A stretch of DNA of 64,000 bases, taken from assembly GCA_044449985.1 (NCBI GenBank), contig JBIOIQ010000002.1, forward strand, positions 684-64,683. The letters are read 5' to 3'. The first letter of the stretch is position 1. Each line of letters starts with the position of its first letter. The notes under the pieces are model-generated. The model was not told where the DNA came from, made no database searches, and saw nothing but the letters and a program-made list of their open reading frames with translations. The translations under genes and the position numbers were made by a program. Below, one piece after another: positions 36,819 to 50,524 of the stretch. This DNA is from Candidatus Saccharimonadia bacterium. Its GTDB lineage: Bacteria > Patescibacteriota > Saccharimonadia > UBA4664 > JBIOIQ01.

Positions 36819-37099
36819 TATTTTGCTCCCTCGAACAGAGCAATGCTTTGACCTTTTTTCACCGTGACGATAGCTTTCTTGGTATCGCGCTCTTGTCCGA
36901 GGATCTTTTTAAACCGTTTTGACTTACCTTTATGGGTAATAGTATTTACGCTAGTCACCTCAACTTTAAACGCTTGTTCAATTGCTCGAGCAATCTCAAT
37001 TTTATTCGAGAGAATCGGAACCTCAAAAACGTAACTATTACGTTCGGCTAACATAATGGCCTTTTCACTTATTCTTGGGAGTATGACAAAGTTACTCAT
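36818..37099 (-). CDS. rplW: 50S ribosomal protein L23
   Basis: 93 aa, positioned between rplD and rplB with an L23-like pattern. Confidence 0.93.
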   Translation of the reverse strand: MSNFVILPRISEKAIMLAERNSYVFEVPILSNKIEIARAIEQAFKVEVTSVNTITHKGKSKRFKKILGQERDTKKAIVTVKKGQSIALFEGAK

Positions 37100-37767
37100 G
37101 ACTTGTCCTCGCTCATGGGCGCCGCTGCTTTGGAGATTGAAGTTTTATCAAGCCAATTTTTAATAATAACTAAGCAGGGTTCAGTAATTAAAATATGATC
37201 ATTGTTTAGTATGTCAAATACATTGAGATAAGCGGCAGAAACCGTCGTTAAACCAGCGATATTATTGGTACTCCGCAGGAGCTGCGCATCTTTTTTTGCA
37301 ACTACCAATAGTATTTGTCCTTCGATCTTTAACTTGGCAAAATATTGGACGGCGTCTTTGACTTTTCCGGTGCCCAAAAAGTCTTCAATAATTGTAATCT
37401 TGCTATCGCTTGCTTGCAGGCTCAACGCTTGGCGAATAGCGAGATGCTTCATCTTGCTCGACATACTGATTGAATAATTTTCATTACCTGAAGGTCCAAA
37501 TACCACTCCGCCGCCGCGCCAATTGGGCACTCGACTCGATCCTACTCGAGCTCTTCCGGTGCCTTTTTGTTTCCATGGTTTCTTTCCGCCGCCTCGAACG
37601 TCACCCCTGGTTAAGGTTGTAGCCGATACAGCTCGCCCGTTAGCTAGGTATGTTCTATAAGCCATATCAATTAAGTCATGATTTGGTTCGACCGCGAATA
37701 TAGCAGCATCAAGTTTAGGAGTAGTTTCCTTCTTTGTTCCGGTTTTGGAATAATACGCGATTGCCAT
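37096..37767 (-). CDS. rplD: 50S ribosomal protein L4
   Basis: 223 aa with GGGKKPWKQKGTGRARVGSSRVPNWRGGG. Confidence 0.96.
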   Translation of the reverse strand: MAIAYYSKTGTKKETTPKLDAAIFAVEPNHDLIDMAYRTYLANGRAVSATTLTRGDVRGGGKKPWKQKGTGRARVGSSRVPNWRGGGVVFGPSGNENYSISMSSKMKHLAIRQALSLQASDSKITIIEDFLGTGKVKDAVQYFAKLKIEGQILLVVAKKDAQLLRSTNNIAGLTTVSAAYLNVFDILNNDHILITEPCLVIIKNWLDKTSISKAAAPMSEDKS

Positions 37768-37768: not shown

Positions 37769-38425
37769 TTAGAAACCCCGTACCGTTACAAAACCCTTGC
37801 GTGGACCAGGTACTGCTCCGCGGACCGCAATGATGTTGTTATCTTTATCAATGAGCTCGACATTTGAACTTCGAATGGTCACTTGATCACCGCCCATCTG
37901 ACCTGCCATATGCATTCCCTTAAAAACATGCTCTGGATATCCCGAACCGATTGAACCTGGAGCACGGTAATTGTGAGAGCCATGTGTCTTCGGGCCTCGG
38001 CTAAAGTTATGACGCTTAATGGTGCCGGCAAAACCTTTACCCTTACTGGTTCCCGTAATATGGATTTTATCTCCAACCGCAAAACTTGAGACGTCAATCG
38101 TGCCACCTATTTTTATTTCCAGATCGTTTAGCGCATTCTCGGCTTGGGCTTCGGTATTGTTCGTCGTTGAATCAATTTCATCGATTCGAAATTCTTTCAT
38201 AATTTCAGGATTTGCATTTGAAGCTTTTAAGTGTCCCATCTGAGGACGTTTCTGGTTCTTTGCCTTCCCGTAGCCTAACTGAACTGCCGAATAGCCATCT
38301 ATTTCTTGTGTTTTAACCTGGGTCACCACACAAGGACCGGCTTCGATTAGAGTGACACGCAAAACATTCCCTTCGTTATCGAAGATTTGTGTCATACCTA
38401 TTTTTCGACCAATTAGTGCTTTCAT
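37769..38425 (-). CDS. rplC: 50S ribosomal protein L3
   Basis: 218 aa from MKALIGRKIGMTQIF with an AAGGG SD. The track ORF starts 5 codons earlier at a TTG. Confidence 0.95.
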   Translation of the reverse strand: MKALIGRKIGMTQIFDNEGNVLRVTLIEAGPCVVTQVKTQEIDGYSAVQLGYGKAKNQKRPQMGHLKASNANPEIMKEFRIDEIDSTTNNTEAQAENALNDLEIKIGGTIDVSSFAVGDKIHITGTSKGKGFAGTIKRHNFSRGPKTHGSHNYRAPGSIGSGYPEHVFKGMHMAGQMGGDQVTIRSSNVELIDKDNNIIAVRGAVPGPRKGFVTVRGF

Positions 38426-38550
38426 TTGACCCTTTAACAAAAAACATTTCTAGCAAATGGGTGGTATCCCTGGTGGACCAGCCCACTTCCCAGACTTTAT
38501 CGCTAAAATACTTTCGAGAAAATGAATCTATTTCTCGGACTTACCAAACG

Positions 38551-38580
38551 ATTCTAGCAAACCTAAGCCACTTCTGTCAA
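38551..38580 (-). promoter_or_regulatory. putative promoter for the rplC... operon (TTGACA-N18-TAGAAT)
   Basis: The minus strand reads TTGACAgaagtggcttaggtttgcTAGAAT, followed by a ~125-nt leader containing the CTGGT/ACCAG and GUGGG/CCCAU helices. Confidence 0.5.
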
Positions 38581-38619
38581 TGAGGAAGCGATGATGAAGA
38601 ATATACCAAAACGCTAATG

Positions 38620-38648
38620 TTGACAATTAGTCCAGATTAGTGTATTAT
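38620..38648 (+). promoter_or_regulatory. putative promoter for the 38666..38893 gene (TTGACA-N17-TATTAT)
   Basis: The plus strand reads TTGACAattagtccagattagtgTATTAT. A TG directly precedes the -10 element. Confidence 0.5.
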
Positions 38649-38665
38649 ACATAACCAAAATCAGA

Positions 38666-38893
38666 TTGAGGCTGATACAACTTATGAAAAACGTCTATCA
38701 ATATATTAATTTCAGGCTTATTACTCTAACCGGGTTGTATGTTGGGTTGTTCTTTATTTATGTAAATACACCCAACACCTATATTGAGCTACGACATAAT
38801 CTTTCGATCGGAATGCTCGTTATTCTGATCGTGACAAGTCTAGTTGCACTCACGACCCTAGTCCCTCATCAAAAGTCAAAACTAGTGCGCTAA
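38666..38893 (+). CDS. hypothetical small membrane protein
   Basis: 75 aa (or 69 aa from the ATG at 38684) with two hydrophobic helices and a good upstream promoter. Confidence 0.5.
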   Translation: MRLIQLMKNVYQYINFRLITLTGLYVGLFFIYVNTPNTYIELRHNLSIGMLVILIVTSLVALTTLVPHQKSKLVR

Positions 38894-39133
38894 GTTAATA
38901 AAAATACCTAGTCCAGCAAATGCCAAAAGAGCTGAGATGAGCAAAACCGCATATTCGACTTTTCGGTCAATTTGAAAGTGTTCATGAGAAGAAAATAACA
39001 AACCAAGTAACAGTCCCACCGGAAATACTATTCTACCGTTATATTTGATCCAAATTGTTCCGAGTATAAAATATAAAAGTATTTTGAGAAAATATACGCT
39101 GCTTGATTCTTCAACATGCTTCTTTTTTGGCAT
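38882..39133 (-). CDS. hypothetical small membrane protein
   Basis: 83 aa with three hydrophobic segments. Its 3' end overlaps the convergent 38666..38893 ORF by 12 nt. Confidence 0.5.
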   Translation of the reverse strand: MPKKKHVEESSSVYFLKILLYFILGTIWIKYNGRIVFPVGLLLGLLFSSHEHFQIDRKVEYAVLLISALLAFAGLGIFINLAH

Positions 39134-39245
39134 ACACTAATTTAAGCATATCCATTTTGAAGGTGCAACTAGCCACTTTAAGAAAATCTATCTTAGCGCA
39201 GCCGTACATAGCTATATTTGTTTAATATTAAACCGAGATGGACTA

Positions 39246-40273
39246 TTGAATATTCGTGATTATACATACATGTTACCAAAAGCCTCAATTGCTTTTTACC
39301 CACAAGCAACACGTGGCGATTCGAGGCTCCTGGTACTCAATAGAGCAGACTCACGGCTATACGATGAGCGCTATGCAAACCTGGTTGACTACTTTAACCC
39401 GGGAGACTTGTTAATACTAAACGATACCAAAGTTATAAAGGCTCGACTGCAGGTTCAAAACAAAAAAAAGCAACTAATTGAGATTTTACTACTCGAGGAA
39501 CATGGCAAAATAACTCCAAATGTGCGGCGAGTACTCTATCGCGGTGAACTCACTACTGGGGAAATATTGCTGCTTGGCTCAACTGAGCTCGAAGTTATTC
39601 GAGTACTAGAGGGTGGCATGGCGGATATTCGCTCTGTTCAAGACTTTAACGAACTTGCTTTGTTTTATGGTGAAGTCCCCTTGCCACCCTATATTAAACG
39701 CCCGATAAATTCCGCTGATACGCTAAGATACCAAAGTATTTTTGCCCAGAAGTCAGGCTCAGTCGCAGCACCCACTGCTTCATTAAATATGACTACACAA
39801 CTACTGAGTCAAATTCGGACCAAAGGAATTCGAGTTGAGTATCTAACTCTGCACGTTGGACTAGGGACATTTTTGCCAATACGAACTTCCAATATTGCCG
39901 AACATAAGATGCACAGCGAGTATTTCGAAATACCTTCAACGACCGTTCGAGCAATTCAGCAAACCAAAACTTCAAATAATCAGGTGATTGCACTTGGTAC
40001 TACGGTTGCGAGAACCCTTGAATATTGCGGGGGAATATTCTCACAAGTAAACCTGTAAAGAATCTAACCGGGGAGGCAGATATATTTATTTACCCCGAGT
40101 ATGATTTCAAAATTGTCGATCAATTAGTTACAAATTTTCATGCACCAAAATCAACCGTATTAATGTTGGTCGCCGCTTTTGCTGGTTGGAAGAACATTCA
40201 AAAGTCTTATCAACATGCACTCGAGAAAGACTACCTATTCCTAAGTTACGGCGACAGCATGTTAATTCGCTAG
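39246..40273 (+). pseudogene. queA: S-adenosylmethionine:tRNA ribosyltransferase-isomerase QueA, interrupted by a frameshift in a G5 run
   Basis: Two ORFs (39246..40058 and 40025..40273) together give a full-length QueA. The frames switch at GGGGG 40029..40033, and restoring one G gives ...[30 protein letters not shown].... The start codon is TTG. Confidence 0.8.
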
Positions 40274-40275
40274 GC

Positions 40276-41475
40276 TTACTCGATCCCATCGTAAAATGAG
40301 ATATTGTTGAGTTCTTCTGGCAAGAAACCGGCTTCAGGTTGAAATCCGGATTTCCATTCATAATTCTCTCCATAATTGAGATCTTGCATAAGCTTTGTCG
40401 GTGCGTTGCGTAAATGCAGTGGAACCTCAGCATTAGGATGTTGCCGAACAGCTGTTATTGCTTTACTTATAGCATCGTTAGCTTTGCGAGATTTGGGACT
40501 TTTTGCCATGGCAATCGTAGCATGGGAGAGTGTGATTCGACATTCCGGCATCCCGATGCGTTCAACGGCCAAAAAGGTGGAAACGGCCAACGGGAGGGCC
40601 TCCGGATATGCCAGTCCAATATCTTCTGAAGCAAATATAATGATGCGACGAGCAATAAATTTTGGATCTTCTCCTCCTTCTAGCATTCGAGCAAGGTAAA
40701 ATAGTGCGCCATCAACCGAACCTCCACGCATCGATTTGATAAATGCCGAGATCAGATTGTAATGGTATTCGCCCCCTTTATCAAAGCGCAAACTTGTTGT
40801 TTGGGTAGCCTTTTTGATAATCTCCGGTGTGATGTGCTTTGCTAGGGAAGCTGCAACTTCAAGACTCCCTATGCCAATTCGTGCGTCTCCCTGGGCAATT
40901 TCACTAAGGAGGTTAAGAGCATCATCAGTGATTGTGTTCGCAGGTAGCTCCTTTATTGCTTTCTCAAGAATATTTTTGATATCCGAAACCTGCAAAGGTT
41001 CGAGTGTTACTACTCGACTTCTGGATAATAATGGACTAATGACTTCGAAAGAGGGGTTTTCTGTTGTTGCGCCAATTAAAATGATCGTACCCTTTTCAAC
41101 ATACGGCAAAAAAGCATCTTGTTGGGCTTTATTGAAACGGTGGATTTCGTCAATAAACAAAATAGTTCTTTGACCCATTTTGCTTCTGGCGATCGCTTGC
41201 TCAATGATTTTTTTGACATCAGCTATACCAGAGGATACCGCCGACAGTTCTTCAAAAGCCGAATCTGAACTCCTGGCAATAATTCTAGCCAGAGTAGTTT
41301 TGCCTGTTCCAGGTGGACCCCATAAAATTAACGAGGTGGGTTGACCAGTCTCAATAATTACGCGCAAAAATTGATTCTTACCTAATAGATGTTGTTGACC
41401 GATGATATCATCGATTTCCTTAGGTCTGATCTTTTCTGCCAAAGGAACATTTTGATTTGACTCAAATAAGGTCAC
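40276..41475 (-). CDS. rarA: replication-associated recombination protein A (RarA/MgsA AAA+ ATPase)
   Basis: 399 aa with LILWGPPGTGKTTLA, FIDEIHRFNKAQQD and the C-terminal MgsA domain. The start codon is GTG. Confidence 0.93.
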   Translation of the reverse strand: MTLFESNQNVPLAEKIRPKEIDDIIGQQHLLGKNQFLRVIIETGQPTSLILWGPPGTGKTTLARIIARSSDSAFEELSAVSSGIADVKKIIEQAIARSKMGQRTILFIDEIHRFNKAQQDAFLPYVEKGTIILIGATTENPSFEVISPLLSRSRVVTLEPLQVSDIKNILEKAIKELPANTITDDALNLLSEIAQGDARIGIGSLEVAASLAKHITPEIIKKATQTTSLRFDKGGEYHYNLISAFIKSMRGGSVDGALFYLARMLEGGEDPKFIARRIIIFASEDIGLAYPEALPLAVSTFLAVERIGMPECRITLSHATIAMAKSPKSRKANDAISKAITAVRQHPNAEVPLHLRNAPTKLMQDLNYGENYEWKSGFQPEAGFLPEELNNISFYDGIE

Positions 41476-41544
41476 GCTTGTAATTATATACTTCCTTTGC
41501 AGAAGTACTATTAAGAGTTACATACCTTGTGCGAGATTATATTT

Positions 41545-41982
41545 TTAGGAATAGTAGGAGCGTATCTGGAAGAGAATCCAAAATGCAATGATTGCCCCAA
41601 TGATTGCGCCGACAATATTATAGGTTACTAAATTATATAAAAGACTTATGAGGGCTGCGTAAAACAGCATCATCCATCCACTGGTTTTTCGAGCAAATAA
41701 GCCGGGAAGTGCCAAGACTTGCAATGCTAACTGAACTAACAGCACAATCCAGGTGATTGAAATCGAAGTTGCTGCAATTCCAGAAAATGGAATAACAAAT
41801 AAGCTAAGTCCGAGTGCTGCAAGCAGAAGTGGTGCGGCCACAATTATTAATAGCAAGTTAATCCATGGCCCCCATTCAACGAGAACTTCTTTTATGCTTT
41901 TAGGCATTTGAACGGGAGATTTGCTTCCAAAGTATGTATCCAAAAATTTCATTACGTCGTTCGATGTGGATTGTTTAGCCAT
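41545..41982 (-). CDS. hypothetical membrane protein
   Basis: 145 aa with 4 hydrophobic helices after a ~35-aa soluble N-terminus. Confidence 0.6.
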   Translation of the reverse strand: MAKQSTSNDVMKFLDTYFGSKSPVQMPKSIKEVLVEWGPWINLLLIIVAAPLLLAALGLSLFVIPFSGIAATSISITWIVLLVQLALQVLALPGLFARKTSGWMMLFYAALISLLYNLVTYNIVGAIIGAIIAFWILFQIRSYYS

Positions 41983-42011
41983 AAGATATCCTTTAAAAAT
42001 AATGCTTATGG

Positions 42012-43016
42012 TTAGTATAGACTTTCATTTGCTAAAATCAAGCGCTGGTCAGTAGCTTCCATTCGTTCTTGCTGATTTTGAAGTACGGATCGTATCTCAG
42101 AGATGGTACTGGCTTGCATAATTGCGTCACGTATAGCAGATGAATTCTCCCCGTTTCTAATGTAAACTTTGGCAAACTTCTTAATTGCAGCAAAGTTTTT
42201 GGGAAAACTTATTGATTGTTCAAATACTGACAGATGAAATAAAAATAAATTAATAAGCTCAACTTCAGAATGTGGCTTGGCAACTTTTTCAAACGCAAAA
42301 ATATTTGAAAAAATTCCCCTGCCAATCATAACACCGTCAACTTTTAAATCTCGTGATATTTCGACTCCTTTAGCTCGTGACGATATGTCCCCATTGCCGA
42401 TAATCTTCGTCGGTTTTTTCATCTGGTTTCTTAACGTCACGATTTTAGATAGCTCGTCCCAATGAGCTGGGACTTTACTCTGTTCTTTGACGGTTCTGGT
42501 ATGGATTGTGATAGCCGCTAAATCAAAACCTAACAAGTACTCTACCCAATCCTCAGTAATTATCGAATCAATCCCGATCCTTGTCTTGACACTCACGGGA
42601 ACCTTTTTTGCAGCTGCTTTGGTTGCAATAATAATCTGACTTGCTCTGTCTCGGTCACGAATGAGAGCTGAACAACAGCCATGTGCAACAACATTCTTAA
42701 CGGGACATCCCATATTTAAATCGATTCCTGAGAATCCAAGCTGAATAAGTCGCTCGGTAACGCTGTAAAAATTATCTGGGTCGTGTCCCCAGAGTTGTGC
42801 AACCAGTGGTTTTTGAAGTTCGATCGGTGAAAACTCGATTTTCGACGCAATTTTTGCCGCACCAGGTGAACACAGCCCGTCAACGTTCGCAAACTCTGTA
42901 AAGAATACATCCGGAGAGGCTGCTTTTGCCACTGTCCGACGAAAGGCGGAATTGGTCACATCATCCATCGGAGCAAGTATAAAAATAGGTGATGAAAGAT
43001 CTTGCCAAAAGTTCAT
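42012..43016 (-). CDS. dus: tRNA-dihydrouridine synthase
   Basis: 334 aa from MNFWQDLSSPIFILAPMDDVTNSAFR, with the motifs LNMGCP and the catalytic Cys region. The track ORF adds 21 unlikely N-terminal residues. Confidence 0.88.
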   Translation of the reverse strand: MNFWQDLSSPIFILAPMDDVTNSAFRRTVAKAASPDVFFTEFANVDGLCSPGAAKIASKIEFSPIELQKPLVAQLWGHDPDNFYSVTERLIQLGFSGIDLNMGCPVKNVVAHGCCSALIRDRDRASQIIIATKAAAKKVPVSVKTRIGIDSIITEDWVEYLLGFDLAAITIHTRTVKEQSKVPAHWDELSKIVTLRNQMKKPTKIIGNGDISSRAKGVEISRDLKVDGVMIGRGIFSNIFAFEKVAKPHSEVELINLFLFHLSVFEQSISFPKNFAAIKKFAKVYIRNGENSSAIRDAIMQASTISEIRSVLQNQQERMEATDQRLILANESLY

Positions 43017-43072
43017 TGTATTAGAGTAACTGAACTTAACCATAAAATACAGCACGAAATGAACTAGGGTAC

Positions 43073-43101
43073 TTGACATTATTCCGGTTATGGTATAGAA
43101 T
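43073..43101 (+). promoter_or_regulatory. putative promoter for the 43234..43848 gene (TTGACA-N17-TAGAAT)
   Basis: The plus strand reads TTGACAttattccggttatggtaTAGAAT. Confidence 0.5.
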
Positions 43102-43109
43102 AACTACTT

Positions 43110-43228
43110 ATGTTCAGATGAGGGCCTGAAAAGGTCCTTTTTGTATACCTGAACATCGCCACACTTTTGTGAGGTGGAGTATCTACATTAACCGAAAGGA
43201 CGTTTTAGATTTCGACATTTTTGTCGAA
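43110..43228 (+). promoter_or_regulatory. structured 5' leader of the secreted transglycosylase-like gene (unclassified)
   Basis: ATGTTCAG (43110..43117) pairs with CTGAACAT (43149..43156), enclosing AGGGCC-TGAAAA-GGTCCT-TTTTT. A second perfect hairpin, TTCGACA-TTTT-TGTCGAA (43211..43228), ends 5 nt before the ATG. No SD is visible. Confidence 0.4.
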
Positions 43229-43233
43229 CACCT

Positions 43234-43848
43234 ATGCGTAACTTTACTAAACTAGTAATTGCTTCTGCAATGCTAGCTACACAGGCGACTCCTACAGCTT
43301 CAACCGCCGTCGCCGCTTCAGTTTCGGTTTCAATACCGACTGTTGTCGCCCCTCAAACAAATATTGTATTTTCAACTTCAAGTATTAACGCACTTGAAAT
43401 ACAATCACCCCCAGCTCCAAACTTTGATACGGATGTTCTGATACCGCTACGCGCAAAGCAAGCCCAAGAAGCTACTGCCGCACAAGCTCAGAAAATCGCA
43501 GCCGCTAAAGCTAGGGCACTTGAAATTTCAGGCCTTAGTTCGGTATCAACCGTTGGCGATCACGCCAGTTGGATGAGCCAAGCCGGAATTAGTCCATCTG
43601 ACTTTGCTTACGTGGATTTTATTGTGAATCACGAAGCAAGTTGGGAGGGTGTCACAAAGTGGAACTACGCCGGTTCTGGTGCGTATGGGATGTTTCAAGC
43701 ACTGCCCGGAAGTAAGATGGCCGTTTACGGTTCTGACTGGGCAACTAATCCAGTAACACAAATAAAATGGGCTAATGCCTATGCGATATCGCGCTATGGC
43801 TCATGGTATGGAGCTTACGAACATTGGCTAAGCTTTCACGCTTGGTAA
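43234..43848 (+). CDS. secreted transglycosylase-like protein (IsaA/SceD/Apf C-terminal-domain-like)
   Basis: 204 aa with a signal peptide (MRNFTKLVIASAMLATQATP) and an Ala/Gln-rich linker. The C-terminal NHEASWEG...SGAYGMFQALPGSKM...W...W reads like small lytic transglycosylase domains. Confidence 0.7.
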   Translation: MRNFTKLVIASAMLATQATPTASTAVAASVSVSIPTVVAPQTNIVFSTSSINALEIQSPPAPNFDTDVLIPLRAKQAQEATAAQAQKIAAAKARALEISGLSSVSTVGDHASWMSQAGISPSDFAYVDFIVNHEASWEGVTKWNYAGSGAYGMFQALPGSKMAVYGSDWATNPVTQIKWANAYAISRYGSWYGAYEHWLSFHAW

Positions 43849-43854
43849 TAAACT

Positions 43855-43879
43855 AAAAACCCCTTTTTAGGGGGTTTTT
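43855..43879. terminator. bidirectional rho-independent terminator between convergent genes
   Basis: AAAAACCCC-TTTTTAG-GGGGTTTTT, with U-runs available on both strands. Confidence 0.75.
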
Positions 43880-43915
43880 AGTTTAGGGATACAATTCTCT
43901 TCCAATTTTTAAAAC

Positions 43916-44497
43916 TTAACTGGTACTGTTCCAATTTGGATCTCTACCTGATAATGCAACTAAGCGCGCTAACGTTGGCGCATTAGGTTCGACAGCTACC
44001 GGACTTTTAAATAATCCACTACTCTCGAGACTTTCTGCTCGATCTTTCACTGAGTTATAAGCGTATTCAACCAGCTGATCATTGAATTTGAGTTGAGAAC
44101 TTAGCGCAACTGCCAGATCCCACGAGTGAATAATGTGATCAAAAAATAGCTGATTGATATAGAAGTCTACTGAAAAGTCACCAAAAGAGAGGTGTACCAA
44201 ATCCTGGCCTGACTTAGAATTGTGTACAGCTTGTTCGGCAGCTTCAGAATACCTTTTCCAAGCAGCCTTTGGGTCGTCTCCCAACAATTCGCCATCATAT
44301 TTATTACCAATTTCTTGAACTGTTTTTCCGTTTAGTAGGTCTGGAACCCAAGCATTCTCATAAGCTACATGGGCCACTAATTGCCTGACATTCCATTTAT
44401 CACAGGGCGTAGGTTTAATCCATGCGTCTGGCGTTATCGATTGCACTAACTGCGAAAATAATTGATTGGCCTGAAGAAAAGCCTCATGTGATTGCAT
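43916..44497 (-). CDS. DinB-fold / MDMPI_N (TIGR03086-like) metal-binding protein, paralogue 1
   Basis: 193 aa with W.KPTPCDKWNVRQLVAHV...WVPDLLNGKTVQEIGNKYDGELLGDDPKAAW and the C-terminal ALSGRDPNW. Confidence 0.75.
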   Translation of the reverse strand: MQSHEAFLQANQLFSQLVQSITPDAWIKPTPCDKWNVRQLVAHVAYENAWVPDLLNGKTVQEIGNKYDGELLGDDPKAAWKRYSEAAEQAVHNSKSGQDLVHLSFGDFSVDFYINQLFFDHIIHSWDLAVALSSQLKFNDQLVEYAYNSVKDRAESLESSGLFKSPVAVEPNAPTLARLVALSGRDPNWNSTS

Positions 44498-44519
44498 AGG
44501 ATTTCATCCTGTTTAGAAG

Positions 44520-45173
44520 TTACTGGCTAAGTAAGGCGAAGCGTAATTTTTGGCTACTTTCCCGGTAAAGCGAAATAGTAAGCGACAAGCCTAGCAAGCC
44601 AAGCATGTCGATTACCCAATTGGCTGGACCAGTTCTAGGGATTGGTTTGGTTATCGCAGCAGGAGCTGGGGTTGTTGCGACCACAGGAGTAGGAATTGGG
44701 GCGGCAATCACAGGATTTCCGTTCGATGATATTATACCCCATGCAAATGCTCCGCGGTTTAACAGTACATAAATGGAGCTACTCTGAGCATTTAATAGTC
44801 CGGCAAGTGGATGAGCGTAACCATTACCATATGATCTAGAGTTTGGAAGGTTTGCGCGGCTTATTTGCCAAACATTACTGGCGACGACTTGTCCGTTTAC
44901 GCTAACTTGGCCGAGATTGTTGACTTCGCCCATAACCGTTTGATTAATATTTGTAATTTGTATACCGCTTGATAAATAGATTTGACTGATGTTGTCTCCT
45001 GAGTCTCGACCATCTCCGTTGTACAATTTTGAAATCAATTCGGATTGTGATGAGGCACCGCAATAAACGACAGAATTTGAATCGCAGAGCGAGCTAGAAT
45101 CGGCATGGACTACATTTGAACTAATCCCAAGCATCAGAATGACACTGGCGACAAAACTTGTTAAATAGCGCAT
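44520..45173 (-). CDS. secreted surface protein with a sortase-type C-terminal sorting signal (IPRTG + TM + basic tail)
   Basis: 217 aa from MRYLTSF..., preceded by AGGGGAG. It has the signal peptide ...SSNVVHA, then the C-terminal PIPRTGPANWVIDMLGLLGLSLTISLYRESSQKLR. Confidence 0.65.
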   Translation of the reverse strand: MRYLTSFVASVILMLGISSNVVHADSSSLCDSNSVVYCGASSQSELISKLYNGDGRDSGDNISQIYLSSGIQITNINQTVMGEVNNLGQVSVNGQVVASNVWQISRANLPNSRSYGNGYAHPLAGLLNAQSSSIYVLLNRGAFAWGIISSNGNPVIAAPIPTPVVATTPAPAAITKPIPRTGPANWVIDMLGLLGLSLTISLYRESSQKLRFALLSQ

Positions 45174-45201
45174 ATTATCAATCTCCCCTATTACCATAGT
45201 A

Positions 45202-46692
45202 TCACGAAGCAGGACTAGTTATTCCTCGGAGGAATTCATAGATCTTAACCATTGCCAAAGTATCTTGTTCGCAATAATTCAAAAGATCTGCAAAGACTTT
45301 GTCAGCTTCCATCTGACTAAGCTCACCTTTTACCGCCCGTGTCCAACGGATTTGAGCGATATCACCTTTTTGAATTTCTAAATTTGAATACGTTAGTTCG
45401 GGCACTAACGCTGGAAGTACGTTTTTTATCGAAACGCTACCTCCAAATCTTGGGTCAACATACCAAAAATTACTGAAAACTTCCATTAAGTCAAAAATAT
45501 TAGAATTAATGGTTGTTAACAAACTCGCATATTTTGGATGTAATTTTGCCATCTCAAGATTTCGTGACATCTCAAAATCTTTAAACCAAACTAATACACT
45601 ACCATTACGGTCAATGTCCGTTTCAAGACGGTCGAGCAATGCTACTACCGGATCGATATCTCCTTTGGCAAGGTACTCTTTCTGAACCAGAGGTAAATCA
45701 AGACCAGGCAGGATATGAAGTGAATACTGAAACGGTAACTGCTGATAGGGACTTTGTCCGGACCATAATGGAATAGGCGTATTATAGGTTTCATAATCTA
45801 GAAACTGAATCGGAAATCTTAACTGATCTAGCCAATAACGGATTTTTTGATGGTGAATTGCAGGCCGGGCTAAAGCCAAAGACTCTAGATATGCCCTTTG
45901 TTGGGCCAGCAGTTTCATATTTAGCGGGATCTCTGCAACATCGGAAATCGCTCTCTCTCTAAATACAGTTAATTGCGGCAACGTGAGTCTTTTTAGATGG
46001 TAGATACTTGTGCTTATAAGCTCAGGGTGTAGATTCCGATATAATGGCAACCACGCACCAAAGTTTTTAGCATATAAAGGGTCATCGTTGGGCTGTTCGG
46101 TGAGCTTTAGGACTTCTAGTGCGTCCCCTACATTGTCAGCAGTTTCTATGGCAATATCGCCGATTTGTTCACTGACATTTTCTATTTTAAAGAGTTTCTT
46201 AGGGTCAAGTTGTCGAGCAAGGACGTAATTTCGATTTATATAGACTATATATAATCGGGTAATGGGTAGACCTGCCTCCTCAAAAGCAAGCTTTTGAAAT
46301 GCAAGATCTTGAATGTGTTGCGTTCGCACCGCAGAAGAGCTTTTAACCTCAAACAAATCCCACCCGGAACCATTTTTCTTTAAAACATCTGCGGAAGCAA
46401 ATAGGTTTCTAGATGTTAATACGCTAGCTTGGAAAATCGTTAGATCAGGATCACTTAAACCCTGTAAGATAATTTCTTGTGTTCTTGCTGATTTTTGAAA
46501 TATCTCCTCATTCACTAAAATCCCATGGGGAAATAACTTCCGAGCTTCCAGTTCAACTTCATTACCCTGGGATACATTAAACTGTGCACTCTCATCAAAC
46601 TCCGGCAGTAGATCTATATGATATTTTTGAATCCATAAATAGGCTGGATGAATCAGGTATTTTAAGTAATCAGATTTCGTTAACCATTTCAT
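45202..46692 (-). CDS. DUF2779-type protein: N-terminal PD-(D/E)XK nuclease-like domain fused to a C-terminal DEDD/RNase-H-fold exonuclease-like domain
   Basis: 496 aa. The N half has ASADVL...WDLFEVKSS...QHIQDLAFQ (a D, E-x-K, Q pattern). The C half has FLDYETY, WFKDFE and YCEQDTLAMV (DxE...D...D pattern). Confidence 0.7.
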   Translation of the reverse strand: MKWLTKSDYLKYLIHPAYLWIQKYHIDLLPEFDESAQFNVSQGNEVELEARKLFPHGILVNEEIFQKSARTQEIILQGLSDPDLTIFQASVLTSRNLFASADVLKKNGSGWDLFEVKSSSAVRTQHIQDLAFQKLAFEEAGLPITRLYIVYINRNYVLARQLDPKKLFKIENVSEQIGDIAIETADNVGDALEVLKLTEQPNDDPLYAKNFGAWLPLYRNLHPELISTSIYHLKRLTLPQLTVFRERAISDVAEIPLNMKLLAQQRAYLESLALARPAIHHQKIRYWLDQLRFPIQFLDYETYNTPIPLWSGQSPYQQLPFQYSLHILPGLDLPLVQKEYLAKGDIDPVVALLDRLETDIDRNGSVLVWFKDFEMSRNLEMAKLHPKYASLLTTINSNIFDLMEVFSNFWYVDPRFGGSVSIKNVLPALVPELTYSNLEIQKGDIAQIRWTRAVKGELSQMEADKVFADLLNYCEQDTLAMVKIYEFLRGITSPAS

Positions 46693-46766
46693 TGTTCATA
46701 TTGTAACAGGCATATCTGACGCTACATTATGGAGTTCTGGGTGTGATCAGATATAATCTATAAATA

Positions 46767-47513
46767 ATGCAAACAGTATATTCACGTTCAAAAGCTGTAA
46801 TCGATCCGCTTGCATCAATCGATTCCGAAATCGTCTTCAATACTCGCTTATATATGAAATATTTCATATCGAGTGAAGTAATCCGCCGCAAGAATATAAA
46901 GCATGTGCTCGAATTATCTTGTGGAAATGGTTTTGGACTTGCAGTTTTGTCGAGTGGAGTGCATAAAATTACCGGCATTGAGCATAACACTTCTCTTCTT
47001 CAAGTTGCACATGATCGTAAACTACATAACGCTAAGCTTATTAAACTTGATCTGAACAAAAATGATTTAGCCAAATATTGGAAGGAAAAAAAGTTTGGAC
47101 GGGTTGGAGCAGTCCTAAAATTTAATTCAAGAGATTTGGATTCCAACGCAGAAGCGCAATTAAGACATTTACGAACAATGTTACCTAGAAATGGCATATT
47201 TATAACTTCTTTTCAAAACTCGAAATATACAAAATCTGAGAACGGGAGCGGTAGGAAAAATATATCAAAGGAGCTTGTTTCCATAAAAGTTTTGAAAAAC
47301 AACTTCGAACAAGCCGGATTCAAAGTTGTTTTTTATGGTCAGCCACTACTCACACTGCTGGAAACTAGGCTTAAATTTGCCATCCCCATACTCGAAAATA
47401 TAGTTTTCGCTCAGGATTCATCGTTTTCGAAGTGGGCAAGATTTATAGGGTTTAAATCTCGCTTTTTTTCAAACTTTTCAAAAGATGTCTTGGTGATTGC
47501 AGAGAAAATTTAG
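46767..47513 (+). CDS. class I SAM-dependent methyltransferase (substrate unknown)
   Basis: 248 aa with motif I VLELSCGNGFGLAVL. It is markedly AT-rich by my spot counts and is divergent from the DUF2779 gene. Confidence 0.7.
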   Translation: MQTVYSRSKAVIDPLASIDSEIVFNTRLYMKYFISSEVIRRKNIKHVLELSCGNGFGLAVLSSGVHKITGIEHNTSLLQVAHDRKLHNAKLIKLDLNKNDLAKYWKEKKFGRVGAVLKFNSRDLDSNAEAQLRHLRTMLPRNGIFITSFQNSKYTKSENGSGRKNISKELVSIKVLKNNFEQAGFKVVFYGQPLLTLLETRLKFAIPILENIVFAQDSSFSKWARFIGFKSRFFSNFSKDVLVIAEKI

Positions 47514-47528
47514 ATACTGAAGCGGTTT

Positions 47529-48077
47529 TTAAGAAATATTTAAAGATGTTGACACATGAGCACTACCGCAGGTGATCGTTACCTGGTAGCTTCCCGGTAT
47601 TGGTGATTCCCAACTCCAATTTAGATTTCCATTCGAATCGGCATATAGAGTTGTATTGCCATTCGGGGCACTGATCGTACACTTAGCATTTGGATTTGCA
47701 TGAGCGGTGACGCTAGCTGAACGAGAATTTGATGAAACAGATGTAATCGAAATTGAATTAGTTCCAGAAGTTGATATATTGGTTGATGAATCTGAAACTG
47801 AGATATTGCCACTCCCAGACATCGAAATGTCTGTATTACTGTCGGAGTTGGACGTAGAACCTCCTGTAACTTCCGGTGTTGATTTTGGGGCAGTTGAGGT
47901 AATAGTTGTTGAACTAGTACTTCTACTATCTGGGGTTGTTTCGTCGCTGATATTTTTAACAGCAGTTATTGTTTTGGGCTTAAGATCTTGATAAATAACT
48001 AATCCAAAAAGCACTAATAGCCCGACGCCGTAAAAAAGAAGTTTTGCTAAGTTATTCCTACTTATAAAAGTTACCAT
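47529..48077 (-). CDS. membrane-anchored Ser/Thr-rich protein with a small Cys-containing C-terminal domain
   Basis: 182 aa with the N-terminal TM helix LAKLLFYGVGLLVLFGLVIY, about 90 aa of S/T/N-rich low-complexity sequence with repeated NIS motifs, then a ~55-aa domain with 2 Cys. Confidence 0.6.
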   Translation of the reverse strand: MVTFISRNNLAKLLFYGVGLLVLFGLVIYQDLKPKTITAVKNISDETTPDSRSTSSTTITSTAPKSTPEVTGGSTSNSDSNTDISMSGSGNISVSDSSTNISTSGTNSISITSVSSNSRSASVTAHANPNAKCTISAPNGNTTLYADSNGNLNWSWESPIPGSYQVTITCGSAHVSTSLNIS

Positions 48078-48103
48078 TCTTAATACCCCAGGCTCTTATC
48101 ATA

Positions 48104-48709
48104 TCATGCTCGCCAATTCGGGTCCCGACCGGTAAGCGCAAAGATTCTAGCTTGGGTGTCAGCATCTTCAGGGAATTCCTGCGCGGCTTTAAAAATACCC
48201 ATTTTACGCCAGAAATCAACTTCGGGTAACACTTCAGAGTAGAAACTTTCGAGCATATCATCCGGGAGTTTTCGGTCAACCCCAATAAGCTTCGCTACAT
48301 CATAAGCTCGGAAGATTCGAAAACTTGTCGGATGGGTAATCCCAATTTTTGCAAGAAAATCACCATAGCTAAAGTGTATAATTCGATCTGGTTTGTAATT
48401 CGCATTTAAACTTTCAATTGCACGACTCGAGAGCTTTTTGTAGGCTGCGATCGGATCATCTCCAATCAAATCGCCTGCATATTGATCTCCAACTTCTTGG
48501 ATAGTTTTTCCCGCAAAAACATCAGGTATCCACGCAGTATCAAATGCATGATAATTAATAATTGTTTTCAAGGTGAGATCGTTTCGACTCTGAGTACGAC
48601 CAACTTCAAACCATTCTGGAATTTGCAAATTCCACTGGGATGGTTGTATTTGGGCAACAACTTTACAAAAACTTAACTCAGATTGAATAAAGACGTCTTT
48701 TTCGCTCAT
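48104..48709 (-). CDS. DinB-fold / MDMPI_N (TIGR03086-like) protein, paralogue 2
   Basis: 201 aa from MSEKDVFIQ... (AAGGG SD), with WIPDVFAGKTIQEVGDQYAGDLIGDDPIAAY and the C-terminal ALTGRDPNW. The track ORF is 9 codons longer. Confidence 0.72.
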   Translation of the reverse strand: MSEKDVFIQSELSFCKVVAQIQPSQWNLQIPEWFEVGRTQSRNDLTLKTIINYHAFDTAWIPDVFAGKTIQEVGDQYAGDLIGDDPIAAYKKLSSRAIESLNANYKPDRIIHFSYGDFLAKIGITHPTSFRIFRAYDVAKLIGVDRKLPDDMLESFYSEVLPEVDFWRKMGIFKAAQEFPEDADTQARIFALTGRDPNWRA

Positions 48710-48757
48710 AAACACCCTTTTATTAATGTTGGTCAAACTACTAGTTTTAGTTTAAAT

Positions 48758-48787
48758 TAAAAAATCCCCCTATGCGGGGGACTTTTT
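48758..48787 (-). terminator. rho-independent terminator immediately downstream of rpsJ
   Basis: The minus-strand RNA reads GUCCCCC-GCAUA-GGGGGAU followed by UUUUUU. An A-run on the other side makes it potentially bidirectional. Confidence 0.75.
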
Positions 48788-48795
48788 TAATAATG

Positions 48796-49119
48796 TTACA
48801 TTTTAATTTCGATGTCGACACCGGCAGGCAAATTGAGATTCATCAGAGCGTCTATAGTTTTCGGAGTAGGCTCTGTAATATCGATTAATCTCTTATGTGT
48901 GCGCATTTCAAACTGTTCACGACTATCTTTATGCACGTGAGGTCCACGAATTACGGTAAAGCCTTTCTTTTCTGTCGGTAGCGGTATCGGTCCTGCCACC
49001 AATGCTCCGGTGCGGGTAGCTGTATCGAGAATTTGTTTCGCCGACTGATCAATTACTTTACTGTCGTAGGCCTTCAGCCGGATTCGTATTCTTTGCTTCT
49101 GTTCAGTTTTTTCTACCAT
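48796..49119 (-). CDS. rpsJ: 30S ribosomal protein S10
   Basis: 107 aa with [19 protein letters not shown]. Confidence 0.96.
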
Positions 49120-49154: not shown

Positions 49155-50345
49155 TTACTTAAGAATCTTTGTAACAACTCCGGCTCCGACAGTTCGGCCG
49201 CCTTCACGAATTGCAAACCGTAGGCCTTCTTCCATCGCAATTGGAGCGATTAAAGTAACTTTCATTTGAACGTTATCTCCAGGCATAACCATTTCCATGC
49301 CGTCTGGAATTTGAATTTCTCCTGTAACGTCAGTGGTTCTAATGTAGAACTGTGGCTTATAGCCTTTGAAGAATGGAGTATGACGTCCGCCTTCTTCTTT
49401 CTTCAAAACATAGACTTCTGATTCAAATTCAGTGTGAGGTGTAATTGAACCAGGCTTTGCGAGAACCTGTCCCCGTTCGATTTCATCTCGCTCAATGCCA
49501 CGAAGCAGTGCCCCAACGTTATCTCCGGCTTGGGCGTCAGGAAGTAGTTTTTTAAACATCTCGACACCCGTCACCACAGTTTTCTTGGTTGGGTGAATAC
49601 CAACGATTTCTATTTCATCGTTAACTGCCAATTTGCCTTGTTCAATTCGACCGGTCGCTACGGTACCACGCCCTTTAATTGAGAAAACGTCTTCTACTGG
49701 CATCAGGAATGGCTTGTCCAAATCTCGCTTGGGGTCGGGAAGATAGTCATCCATTGCTTTAACAAGTTCTAGAATTGATTTTTCAGCTTCGGCATCACCT
49801 TCGAGAGCTTTTAGTGCTGAGCCCTTAATTATAGGCGCACCATCACCATCATAGTCATTTTTATTCAACAGCTCACGGATTTCCATTTCAACAAGTTCTG
49901 CGAGTTCAGGATCTGCCATATCCATCTTGTTCATGAATACCAAGATGGAAGGGACGCCCACTTGGCGAGCAAGCAGGACATGTTCTCTGGTTTGGGGCAT
50001 TGGGCCGTCAGCCGCTGAAACTACTAAAATGGCAGCATCAACTTGAGCTGCACCGGTGATCATATTTTTGACGTAATCTGCGTGACCAGGCATATCGACA
50101 TGAGCGTAATGGCGTTTTTCACTTTCATATTCTTGATGTGAAGTCGCAATCGTAATACCACGTTGTCGTTCTTCAGGGGCATTATCAATTTGATCGTATG
50201 CAACAGGTTTATTGATACTACTCGGCAAGTGTTTTGCCAGCACGCTAGTGATTGCTGCTGTCAAAGTCGTTTTACCATGGTCGACATGACCCATGGTACC
50301 GACATTGAGATGCGGCTTATTTCGAGAAAATGTTTCTGTAGCCAT
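49155..50345 (-). CDS. tuf: elongation factor Tu
   Basis: 396 aa with [18 protein letters not shown] and NKMD. Confidence 0.98.
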
Positions 50346-50370
50346 TTAAGCTCCTTAAATAATCATTATG

Positions 50371-50465: not shown

Positions 50466-50524
50466 CTTTTTTGTTATGTTGTTAAAAATGAGCAATAAAA
50501 ATAACCGCCCATTTGGACTTACCT

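What the first reader, a model, noticed from the sequence alone, without database searches (positions are those of the whole stretch)
38441..48795. The S10 operon is broken: ~10.3 kb of unrelated genes sit between rpsJ and rplC
Seen in the sequence:
- rpsJ (48796..49119) is followed at once by a GC hairpin plus U-run (48758..48787).
- rplC starts only at 38425 and has its own TTGACA-N18-TAGAAT promoter-like site (38551..38580) and a ~125-nt leader.
- Between them lie 13 ORFs on both strands: two small membrane proteins, a frameshifted queA, rarA, a membrane protein, dus, a secreted transglycosylase-like protein, two DinB/TIGR03086-like paralogues, a sortase-signal surface protein, a DUF2779 nuclease, a methyltransferase and a Ser/Thr-rich anchored protein.

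Established knowledge: rpsJ-rplC adjacency is among the most conserved gene pairs in bacteria.

Inference: this junction has accreted accessory and housekeeping genes, yet I see no integrase, transposase or flanking repeats.
Basis: partly seen in the sequence, partly recalled or inferred. Interest (0 to 1): 0.6.

Follow-up and report, generated by a model that had tools for sequence, protein, structure and literature searches.

The report
Old, lineage-wide split of S10 operon
In this Saccharimonadia (TM7) genome the normally adjacent ribosomal genes rpsJ and rplC are 10.4 kb apart; this is an old split shared by every relative examined, not a recent insertion, and the detached rplC operon has its own conserved promoter and a previously undescribed structured leader RNA.

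Summary
rpsJ (48796..49119, -) ends in a strong terminator hairpin. rplC (ATG 38425, -) lies 10,370 nt downstream behind a near-consensus promoter. About 13 unrelated ORFs sit between them.

The interpretation as an accessory insertion is only partly right. Eleven other assemblies of related Saccharimonadia lineages show the same split. Where both genes are on one contig they are colinear and on the same strand, 6.05, 8.8, about 9.95, 13.3 and 21.0 kb apart. The cultured Southlakia epibionticum has a 0.64-kb gap holding one ORF. Among 113 fetched loci that contain both genes, 109 have them adjacent; the other four are Saccharimonadia.

The gap has a conserved core. An 83-aa membrane protein sits upstream of rplC in 8 of 8 lineages, rarA is present in 5 of 8, and DinB-like and DUF2779 genes recur. 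The rest is variable cargo: IS elements, a restriction-modification system, a HicA toxin gene and ABC transporter genes. This rules out misassembly and a recent island.

New here is a roughly 60-nt structured motif at 38436..38495 (-). It lies between a perfect TTGACA promoter and rplC in 9 of 9 lineages. Of 19 base pairs, 13 show compensatory changes, two held-out lineages match the model, and Rfam 15 has no matching family. It is probably an autoregulatory ribosomal-protein leader; the ligand is untested.

The parts
49155..50345 (-). tuf (EF-Tu); rpsJ follows after a 35-nt spacer, so the two are probably co-transcribed
   Evidence: ORF and translation; 82-91% identity to tuf of relatives; sequence of the spacer
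48796..49119 (-). rpsJ (S10), last gene of the tuf/str transcription unit
   Evidence: Pfam Ribosomal_S10 E 1e-37; 100% identical to NCBI MFI5240272.1, Candidatus Saccharimonadia MAG
48759..48788 (-). Intrinsic terminator: A-run, GC hairpin, U-run (bidirectional in form), directly after the rpsJ stop codon
   Evidence: Terminator scan; fold -22.5 kcal/mol, with equivalent hairpins after rpsJ in 6 of 7 relatives
48104..48736 (-). DinB-like 210-aa protein (g13), paralogue of g08; recurs in the gap of relatives
   Evidence: tblastn 43-48% identity in L083, L129 and L131; no Pfam hit of its own
47529..48077 (-). Ser/Thr-rich 182-aa protein with an N-terminal hydrophobic segment (g12)
   Evidence: Translation; partial homologue in L131 next to DUF2779
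46767..47513 (+). Putative methyltransferase (g11); lineage-specific
   Evidence: Weak Pfam Methyltransf_31/25 hits below the curated cut-offs; no homologue in related gaps
45202..46692 (-). DUF2779 protein with a Cas4-like nuclease region (g10); recurrent gap resident
   Evidence: Pfam DUF2779 E 2e-34; 54-55% identity in L081 and L131
44520..45197 (-). 225-aa secreted or anchored protein (g09), next to DUF2779 as in relatives
   Evidence: Homologues in L081, L083 and L131
43916..44497 (-). MDMPI_N/DinB_2 protein (g08)
   Evidence: Pfam; homologue in the L137 gap
43234..43848 (+). 204-aa secreted transglycosylase-like protein (g07)
   Evidence: No Pfam hit itself; matches genes annotated PF06737 in L082 and a homologue in L081
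42012..43079 (-). dus (tRNA dihydrouridine synthase); not seen in related gaps
   Evidence: Pfam Dus E 2e-44; absent from related loci
41545..41982 (-). 145-aa membrane protein (g05); precedes rarA as in L081
   Evidence: tblastn hits in L081 and L083
40276..41475 (-). rarA/mgsA AAA+ ATPase; conserved gap resident
   Evidence: Pfam MgsA_C, AAA_assoc_2 and AAA; 63-69% identity inside the gap of L081, L133, L134 and L137
39246..40273 (+). queA, split in two frames (39246-40058 and 40025-40273): pseudogene or homopolymer error
   Evidence: Pfam Queuosine_synth profile 2-247 and 252-322 on the two ORFs; G5 run at 40029-40033
38882..39133 (-). 83-aa membrane protein (g02), the universal neighbour upstream of rplC on the same strand
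   Evidence: Present upstream of rplC in 8 of 8 lineages at 46-74% identity; family of 148 small hypothetical proteins, at least 10 of which share contig length and source with L3 homologues
38551..38580 (-). Promoter-like site TTGACA-N18-TAGAAT with TG, serving rplC
   Evidence: a perfect TTGACA-N17/18-TAnnnT lies 136-206 nt before the rplC start in 9 of 9 lineages
38436..38495 (-). Conserved structured leader RNA: three stacked helices with conserved bulges, then a U-rich run, then the Shine-Dalgarno AAAGGG and the rplC ATG
   Evidence: Alignment and covariation; covariance-model hits in held-out lineages; single hit in the window; no Rfam family
37769..38425 (-). rplC (L3), first gene of the detached rplC-rplD-rplW-rplB... 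operon
   Evidence: Pfam Ribosomal_L3; 218 aa, as in homologues
35985..37767 (-). rplD, rplW, rplB in canonical order, tightly packed
   Evidence: ORFs; tblastn to relatives

Best explanation
This is an old, fixed split of the S10 operon. It is shared by a clade of Saccharimonadia (Saccharibacteria/TM7) and arose by insertion at the rpsJ|rplC junction, not by translocation.

rpsJ stayed with tuf and is now the last gene of that transcription unit, closed by an intrinsic terminator. rplC heads an autonomous ribosomal-protein operon. That operon is driven by a near-consensus sigma-70-type promoter and preceded by a conserved structured leader of about 60 nt. The leader most likely lets one of the operon's products feed back on the operon, by attenuation at the following U-rich tract, by blocking the nearby ribosome-binding site, or both. 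L4 is the candidate by analogy with E. coli.

Because the two flanks are transcriptionally independent, the DNA between them tolerates gene gain and loss. It keeps a few long-term residents: the 83-aa membrane protein next to rplC, rarA, DinB-like genes and DUF2779. It also picks up lineage-specific cargo. In this genome that cargo includes dus, a frameshifted queA, a methyltransferase and surface proteins.

Shown: the split, its phylogenetic spread, the conserved core, the conserved promoter and terminator sequences, and the covarying RNA structure. Inferred: actual transcription starts and stops, the leader's regulatory role, and its ligand.
For: - Split in relatives. There is no rpsJ within 10 kb upstream of rplC in L081, L082 and L083. 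There is no rplC downstream of rpsJ in L131 and L141 within 10 kb, or in L001 within 2.2 kb.
- Colinear, same-strand gaps when both genes are on one contig: 6.05 kb (L133), 8.8 kb (L137-139), about 9.95 kb (L134-136), 13.3 kb (L130 and L132 on one JGI contig) and 21.0 kb (L129 and L082 on one Logan contig).
- Southlakia epibionticum ML1 has a 640-nt gap with one non-essential ORF (Tn-seq table of PMC10633639).
- Outgroups are adjacent. These include Patescibacteria L027, L058, L064 and L068 and the distant 'Saccharibacteria' MAG L022; in total 109 of 113 loci are adjacent.
- Conserved gap core: g02 in 8 of 8 lineages and rarA in 5 of 8, with L081 following nearly the same gene order as the window.
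- A terminator follows rpsJ in the window and in 6 of 7 relatives.
- A perfect -35 hexamer with 17-18-nt spacing is present in 9 of 9 lineages.
- Leader structure. On the independent MAFFT alignment, 91% of cells are paired and 12 of 17 pairs are compensatory. No shuffle out of 500 reached this, slid controls gave 31-44%, and RNAalifold predicts the same fold.
- Leader validation. The covariance model built from 7 lineages finds the motif at the expected place in two held-out lineages (E 1.5e-6 and 2e-5, the only hits in 112 kb). With 9 lineages, 13 of 19 pairs are compensatory.
- The model gives no hit in 80 non-clade loci.
Against: - No transcript data exist, so promoter, terminator and leader function are sequence predictions. 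The promoter scan alone is at chance level for this AT-rich region.
- The relatives were chosen as the best hits to this genome. How far the split reaches across the whole class was not surveyed. Nanosynbacter lyticus TM7x and Saccharimonas aalborgensis were not examined.
- One relative (L133) lacks the terminator after rpsJ.
- No resemblance of the leader to rRNA was demonstrated. The covariance model finds nothing in the E. coli rrn operon and a loop-motif pattern scan was not significant.
- The leader could act without a protein ligand.
- I could not show that Southlakia's single gap ORF is a g02 homologue.
Confidence: 0.85

Rival explanations
1. A recent insertion of a mobile or genomic island into the S10 operon of this particular genome.
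For: The gap has somewhat lower G+C (0.375-0.436) than the flanking ribosomal genes (about 0.445). It holds genes on both strands and some accessory-looking genes. Related gaps do carry IS1595 and rve transposases, a restriction-modification system and HicA.
Against: The window's gap has no integrase or transposase and no flanking repeats. The split is present in all relatives examined. Conserved residents lie at both ends and follow nearly the same order as in L081, whose L3 is only 65% identical. A dedicated promoter and leader for rplC are conserved in 9 of 9 lineages. The G+C difference lies within the window's overall range of 0.375-0.49.
Confidence: 0.03
2. A misassembly or chimeric contig in the MAG that joins two unrelated regions.
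For: The source is a metagenome-assembled contig. No reads were available to check it. queA carries a frameshift at a homopolymer run, so some sequence error is possible.
Against: The same colinear arrangement, with the same neighbours at each junction, recurs in independent assemblies from ENA, JGI, Logan and NCBI. These include 0.83-Mb and 1.19-Mb contigs and an isolate genome.
Confidence: 0.02
3. The separation is not derived in Saccharimonadia. It is retained from a deeper ancestor in which rpsJ already belonged to the str/tuf unit and rplC had its own promoter, as in cyanobacteria and archaea. Saccharimonadia merely widened a pre-existing operon boundary.
For: Non-split Patescibacteria have unusually long rpsJ-rplC spacers of 204-286 nt, against a median of 48 nt. 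L058 and L068 carry TTGACN-N17-TAnnnT sites there. L068's spacer ends with a hairpin followed by UUUUUUGUU just before rplC. tuf-rpsJ is tightly linked in most lineages.
Against: Only 2 of 5 outgroup spacers show a promoter-like site, and such sites are frequent by chance in AT-rich DNA. The Saccharimonadia leader model gives no credible hit in the outgroups even with filters off; the best hit, E about 1, is the tuf terminator. Physical adjacency holds in all outgroups.
Confidence: 0.1

Closest known systems
Cyanobacterial, plastid and archaeal organisation of the str and S10 clusters (rps12-rps7-fus-tuf-rps10 as one unit; a separate cluster starting with rpl3). From my own knowledge; not tested with these tools.
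   Same: rpsJ directly follows tuf and ends that unit. rplC heads the large ribosomal-protein operon, which keeps its canonical internal order.
   Different: Here the two units remain colinear, on the same strand and only 0.6-21 kb apart, so the split looks like an in-place insertion that grew rather than a relocation. It is derived inside Patescibacteria, whose other members keep the genes adjacent.
E. coli S10 operon leader, autoregulated by L4 through attenuation plus translational repression (PMC3616713, PMC10931766)
   Same: A structured 5' leader heads the operon that encodes L3, L4, L23 and L2. It is an irregular hairpin followed by a U-rich tract and then the ribosome-binding site.
   Different: The E. 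coli leader precedes rpsJ and is confined to Gammaproteobacteria (PMC3616713). This one precedes rplC. I made no direct sequence or structure comparison with the E. coli leader, which, as far as I recall, is not an Rfam family. No L4 binding or rRNA mimicry was shown.
Archaeoglobi L4 ribosomal-leader candidate upstream of rplC-rplD-rplW-rplB (Eckert and Weinberg 2020, PMC7247131)
   Same: A candidate leader placed directly before an rplC-headed operon, with L4 proposed as ligand only by precedent.
   Different: It comes from a different domain of life. The Rfam 15 scan of this leader found no family at E up to 1, so there is no detectable relationship.
Integration hotspots between conserved core genes in bacterial genomes
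   Same: Two highly conserved anchors flank a segment whose content differs between lineages and includes IS elements, a restriction-modification system and a toxin gene.
   Different: The segment also keeps long-term residents in conserved order. In this genome it shows no mobility genes or repeats.

Membership tests
str/tuf-attached rpsJ with a separate rplC-headed operon (cyanobacterial/archaeal-type organisation) | rpsJ immediately follows tuf | tested here: met
   35-nt spacer in the window; 19-44 nt in L130, L131 and L141. Exceptions: L133 (2.3 kb) and Southlakia (613 nt).
str/tuf-attached rpsJ with a separate rplC-headed operon (cyanobacterial/archaeal-type organisation) | rplC is not adjacent to rpsJ and is followed by the canonical rplD-rplW-rplB... 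order | tested here: met
   10,370-nt gap in the window; the canonical order continues through secY in all relatives.
str/tuf-attached rpsJ with a separate rplC-headed operon (cyanobacterial/archaeal-type organisation) | The two parts are separate transcription units | not testable with these tools
   Only sequence predictions are available: a terminator after rpsJ and a conserved promoter before rplC. The non-essentiality of the Southlakia gap ORF under transposon insertion is compatible, but outward reading from the transposon cannot be excluded.
Mobile genetic element or genomic island | Integrase, recombinase or transposase gene | tested here: not met
   None among the 13 ORFs in the Pfam scans.
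Mobile genetic element or genomic island | Flanking direct or inverted repeats, or a tRNA attachment site | tested here: not met
   Only chance-level 14-31-nt repeats. The nearest tRNA genes are at 19.8-20.7 kb.
Mobile genetic element or genomic island | Patchy presence among close relatives | tested here: not met
   The split is present in every related lineage examined, with a conserved core.
Mobile genetic element or genomic island | Deviant base composition | tested here: inconclusive
   Gap G+C is 0.375-0.436 against about 0.445 in the flanking ribosomal genes, but the window as a whole ranges from 0.375 to 0.49.
Ribosomal-protein autoregulatory leader RNA | Located in the 5' untranslated region of a ribosomal-protein operon, downstream of its promoter | tested here: met
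   The motif at 38436..38495 lies between the promoter (38551..38580) and the rplC ATG (38425). The placement is the same in 9 of 9 lineages.
Ribosomal-protein autoregulatory leader RNA | Conserved secondary structure supported by covariation | tested here: met
   90-91% of cells paired; 12 of 17 and 13 of 19 pairs compensatory; no shuffle out of 500 reached this; slid controls 31-44%; RNAalifold agrees; held-out hits found.
Ribosomal-protein autoregulatory leader RNA | Match to a described leader family | tested here: not met
   Rfam 15 gave no hit at E up to 1 on 36000-51500 and none at gathering score on the whole window.
Ribosomal-protein autoregulatory leader RNA | Mimicry of the ligand's rRNA binding site | tested here: inconclusive
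   The model gave no hit in the E. coli 16S-23S-5S operon. A loop-motif pattern gave 3 matches against 0.6 expected, and 9 of 200 shuffles did as well, so this is not significant. No Saccharimonadia rRNA was available.
Ribosomal-protein autoregulatory leader RNA | Binding by an operon-encoded protein, with repression or attenuation | not testable with these tools
   Needs binding and reporter or termination assays.

The most novel reading that the evidence does not exclude
The conserved motif before rplC is a new, Saccharimonadia-specific autoregulatory leader that senses an operon product, L4 or L3. Its emergence, together with a strong promoter, made the rplC operon independent of rpsJ. That independence turned one of the most conserved gene junctions in bacteria into a permissive site where genes accumulate. 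It would be the first ribosomal-protein feedback RNA described in the candidate phyla radiation, and it could be tested directly in the genetically tractable Southlakia epibionticum.
Probability: 0.45. Interest if true: 0.6.

Novelty: new variant of a known kind. Interest (0 to 1): 0.42.

Why it matters
The rpsJ|rplC gap is a simple, robust gene-order character for a Saccharimonadia clade. It is useful as a phylogenetic marker and as a check on binning or assembly. It also affects pipelines that assume one contiguous ribosomal-protein block in Patescibacteria.

The split shows that a near-universal operon junction can be opened and then kept open for a long time, provided the downstream part has its own promoter and control element.

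The structured leader is a concrete new candidate for ribosomal-protein autoregulation in an ultra-small, reduced-genome lineage, where almost nothing is known about gene regulation. Cultured, transformable relatives exist, so it can be tested.

The split itself is not a dramatic finding. It resembles a known alternative organisation and is already visible, though not commented on, in a published isolate genome.

Tried and rejected
- The genome-contig scan with S10 was swamped by Firmicutes because S10 is so conserved. Only L001, L022 and L027 were useful.
- The metagenome-contig scan with L3 used peptide patterns that were too specific and returned mostly distant lineages at 60% identity or less. 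Those loci served only as background for adjacency statistics.
- An exact look-up of the window's own S10 found nothing, although the protein is in the collection.
- The leader model run against the E. coli rrn operon gave no hit. A loop-motif pattern hit 23S nucleotides 603-635, which from memory is near an L4 cross-link site, but the match count was not significant. I make no mimicry claim.
- A weak filters-off hit upstream of rpsJ in L068 turned out to be the tuf terminator hairpin.
- The 737-nt 'gap' in L056 is an alignment artefact caused by an insert in L3.
- Literature searches for a described S10-operon split or an rplC leader in Saccharibacteria or the candidate phyla radiation found nothing.
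- I found no open-access paper to cite for the cyanobacterial arrangement, so it is marked as my own knowledge.
- Homology between Southlakia's gap ORF and the 83-aa protein could not be tested because no sequence was available. The family search returned no named oral taxa.
- Two other loci, L088 and L092 (L3 42-45% identical, taxon unknown), also lack rpsJ upstream of rplC. I did not identify them.

Full report
**1. What is in the window**

On the minus strand the window carries rpsL (54316..54729), rpsG (53765..54241) and a 143-aa ORF (53215..53646). These are followed by fusA (51034..53115), tuf (49155..50345) and rpsJ (48796..49119) (Pfam S10 E 1e-37).

- A hairpin follows the rpsJ stop codon directly. 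It has an A-run, the stem TCCCCC/GGGGGA and a run of six U at 48759..48788, and it folds at -22.5 kcal/mol.
- rplC begins at the ATG at 38425. This start gives 218 aa, the length of its closest homologues. rplD, rplW and rplB follow without spacers.
- The distance from the rpsJ stop to the rplC start is 10,370 nt.

- queA is in two frames, broken between profile positions 247 and 252 next to a G5 run.
- rarA/mgsA, dus, an MDMPI_N/DinB_2 protein with a more divergent paralogue next to rpsJ, and DUF2779 with a weak Cas4-like region are all present.
- The methyltransferase match is weak.
- The transglycosylase-like secreted protein has no Pfam hit of its own, but it matches genes annotated PF06737 in relatives.
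- Several small or Ser/Thr-rich membrane and surface proteins are also present.
- The 75-aa plus-strand ORF at 38666..38893 has no detected homologue and may not be a gene.

No integrase or transposase is present, and the repeats around the junctions are chance-level.

**2. How unusual the gap is**

I fetched 113 loci from other bacteria that contain both genes. In 108 of them rpsJ and rplC are less than 600 nt apart, with a median of 48 nt. One further apparent gap (L056) is an alignment artefact. The only four loci with a real gap belong to the Saccharimonadia relatives found later.

**3. The split is shared, not private**

The window's S10 protein is identical to NCBI MFI5240272.1, from a 'Candidatus Saccharimonadia bacterium' MAG contig of 90,823 bp. 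I took L3 homologues at 60-66% identity and S10 homologues at 79-96% identity and fetched the contigs that encode them.

No relative showed rpsJ next to rplC:
- Upstream of rplC there is no rpsJ within 10 kb in L081 (a 1.19-Mb contig), L082 and L083.
- Downstream of rpsJ there is no rplC within 10 kb in L131 and L141, nor within the 2.2 kb available in L001.

Where both genes fall on one contig they are colinear and on the same strand:

| Locus | Gap | Source |
|---|---|---|
| L133 | 6.05 kb | 0.83-Mb contig |
| L137-139 | 8.8 kb | |
| L134-136 | about 9.95 kb | |
| L130 and L132 | 13.3 kb | same JGI contig |
| L129 and L082 | 21.0 kb | same Logan contig |

The published Tn-seq table for the cultured oral Saccharibacterium Southlakia epibionticum ML1 gives a further case. 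It lists S10 at 443194-443517 and L3 at 441936-442553 on the same strand. They are separated by 640 nt that hold a single non-essential 106-aa hypothetical gene (PMC10633639 supplement).

The outgroups keep the genes adjacent. Other Patescibacteria do so (a Patescibacteria-group MAG L027, Berkelbacteria L058, Parcubacteria L064, Magasanikiibacteriota L068). So does one MAG labelled Saccharibacteria whose L3 is only 42% identical (L022).

The split is therefore old, fixed in a Saccharimonadia clade, and derived within Patescibacteria. Because order and strand are always preserved, growth by insertion at the junction is more parsimonious than translocation. Independent assemblies from four sources with the same junction neighbours rule out misassembly as the cause.

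**4. The gap has a conserved core and a variable remainder**

A tblastn search of the window's gap proteins against the related loci gave these results:
- The 83-aa membrane protein (38882..39133) lies upstream of rplC on the same strand in all eight lineages where that region is visible, at 46-74% identity.
- rarA is inside the gap in five of the eight lineages.
- L081 follows nearly the window's gene order: 225-aa protein, DUF2779, transglycosylase-like gene on the opposite strand, 145-aa protein, rarA, 83-aa protein, rplC. Its L3 is only 65% identical.
- DinB-like genes recur in L083, L129, L131 and L137, and DUF2779 recurs in L081 and L131.

A family search for the 83-aa protein found 148 small hypothetical proteins from Saccharimonadia or Patescibacteria MAGs. 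At least ten share contig length and source with L3 homologues, including a pair on a 1,445-bp contig. This extends the linkage further, by inference.

The rest of each gap is lineage-specific:
- IS1595 and rve transposases and NUDIX in L081.
- HicA and RNase H in L133.
- A large Big_7/beta-helix protein in L134.
- An ABC transporter, a DEAD-box helicase and a PIF1/UvrD-like (AAA_30) helicase in L130/L132.
- A DNA methylase plus HNH pair, Ku and LigD in L141.

In this window dus, queA and the methyltransferase have no counterpart in related gaps.

Other junctions of the same cluster are also loosened in the clade:
- The 143-aa ORF between rpsG and fusA has a homologue, annotated PF03479, in the same position in L130.
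- L130 and L141 carry 2.4-2.6 kb between fusA and tuf.

**5. How the two halves are expressed (inferred from sequence)**

rpsJ sits 35 nt after tuf in the window and 19-44 nt after it in L130, L131 and L141. A canonical intrinsic terminator follows rpsJ in the window and in six of seven relatives. rpsJ therefore looks like the last gene of the tuf unit.

The scan finds as many such sites as in shuffled sequence. However, a perfect TTGACA with 17-18-nt spacing to a TAnnnT box is present 136-206 nt before the rplC start in all nine lineages. That conservation gives it weight.

**6. A conserved structured leader**

Aligning the regions upstream of rplC revealed a motif of about 60 nt, at 38436..38495 on the minus strand in the window.
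- It forms one irregular hairpin of three stacked helices: CUGG/CCAG-type, AAGYG/CRUUU-type, and a variable apical stem closed by an almost invariant U-A pair (8 of 9 lineages).
- The unpaired nucleotides are conserved: a G bulge, GG...CC flanking an A(A/U) bulge.
- The hairpin is followed by a U-rich run (UUUUUUGUU in the window), the Shine-Dalgarno AAAGGG and the start codon.

The structure is well supported:
- On a MAFFT alignment of seven lineages, 91% of cells are paired and 12 of 17 pairs show changes on both sides. None of 500 shuffles reached any of the five measures, and slid controls gave 31-44% pairing.
- RNAalifold independently predicts the same fold.
- A covariance model built from those seven sequences found the motif at the expected place in two held-out lineages. 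These were L137 (E 1.5e-6) and L134 (E 2e-5), the only hits in 112 kb.
- With nine lineages, 13 of 19 pairs are compensatory.
- The model hits the window once, hits nothing credible in 80 non-clade loci, and finds nothing in outgroup Patescibacteria with filters off.
- Rfam 15 has no match at E up to 1 or at gathering thresholds on the whole window.

The literature offers two reference points. The E. coli S10 leader bound by L4 precedes rpsJ and is restricted to Gammaproteobacteria (PMC3616713). The only leader candidate before rplC that my literature search turned up is in Archaeoglobi (PMC7247131).

By position and architecture this is most likely a ribosomal-protein leader that gives the detached operon feedback control. 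L4 is the default candidate by precedent, and L3 or another product is possible. I could not support rRNA mimicry, so the ligand and mechanism remain inference.

**7. A possible precondition**

The non-split Patescibacteria have long rpsJ-rplC spacers of 204-286 nt. Two of them (L058, L068) carry promoter-like sites there, and L068 ends its spacer with a hairpin followed by UUUUUUGUU just before rplC. This hints that a transcriptional boundary at this junction may predate the physical split. The evidence is thin, and I list it as a rival reading.

**8. Comparison with what is known, and verdict**

From my own knowledge, the arrangement works like the cyanobacterial, plastid and archaeal organisation, in which rps10 closes the str/tuf unit and rpl3 opens a separate cluster. 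It differs in two ways: it remains colinear at 0.6-21 kb, and it is derived within Patescibacteria. It is not a mobile island, since the defining features were tested and not met.

The leader is a ribosomal-leader-like RNA with no described family. I found no paper that mentions either the split or the leader in Saccharibacteria, although the split is visible in a published isolate's gene table.

It is ordinary in kind but lineage-defining, and it comes with a well-supported new RNA motif whose function remains to be tested. Interest is moderate.

Noticed in passing
window 38436..38495 (-); also L081 9929-9990, L082 9923-9987, L083 9891-9955, L085 392-455, L132 9923-9987, L133 9925-9988, L134 9918-9980, L137 9916-9973: Conserved structured RNA motif between a consensus promoter and rplC. 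It shows strong covariation, matches in held-out lineages, and has no Rfam family. It is a candidate new ribosomal-protein leader of Saccharimonadia.
   Followed up: yes
window 39246..40273 (+), frameshift near the G5 run at 40029-40033: queA is split into two overlapping frames. It is either a real pseudogene or a homopolymer error in the MAG. queA is not found in the corresponding gap of any relative examined.
   Followed up: partly
window 53215..53646 (-), and 50346..51033: A 143-aa ORF sits between rpsG and fusA. Its homologue in L130, annotated PF03479, occupies the same position. A 688-nt spacer separates fusA from tuf, and relatives L130 and L141 hold 2.4-2.6 kb of genes there. Other junctions of the str cluster are thus also loosened in this clade.
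   Followed up: partly
L058 and L068, rpsJ-rplC spacers (277 and 286 nt): Non-split Berkelbacteria and Magasanikiibacteriota loci carry promoter-like TTGACN-N17-TAnnnT sites between rpsJ and rplC. L068 has a hairpin followed by UUUUUUGUU just before rplC. This may mean that a separate rplC promoter or attenuator predates the physical split.
   Followed up: partly
window 38882..39133 (-): An 83-aa, probably three-helix membrane protein of unknown function is linked to rplC in every lineage examined. Its family has 148 members, all unannotated. A small convergent ORF often lies between it and rplC in relatives (57-83 aa in L082, L132, L133, L134 and L137). The window's 75-aa ORF at 38666..38893 occupies that position but shows no detected similarity to them.
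   Followed up: partly
Southlakia epibionticum ML1, SEML1_0474-0477 (PMC10633639 supplementary file 1): This cultured relative has only 640 nt and one non-essential 106-aa ORF between rpsJ and rplC, and 613 nt between tuf and rpsJ. Transposon insertions in the gap ORF are tolerated although essential ribosomal genes lie downstream. That is compatible with an rplC-proximal promoter.
   Followed up: partly
L088 (rplC at 10001) and L092: Two metagenome loci from unidentified lineages (L3 42-45% identical to the window's) also lack rpsJ upstream of rplC, for 10 kb and 2 kb respectively. These are possibly further independent splits, or cyanobacteria-like organisation.
   Followed up: no
window 43849..43885: A perfect 15-nt inverted repeat (TAAACTAAAAACCCC / GGGGTTTTTAGTTTA) lies between the convergent 204-aa and DinB-like genes. 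It is a bidirectional terminator-like hairpin inside the gap.
   Followed up: no
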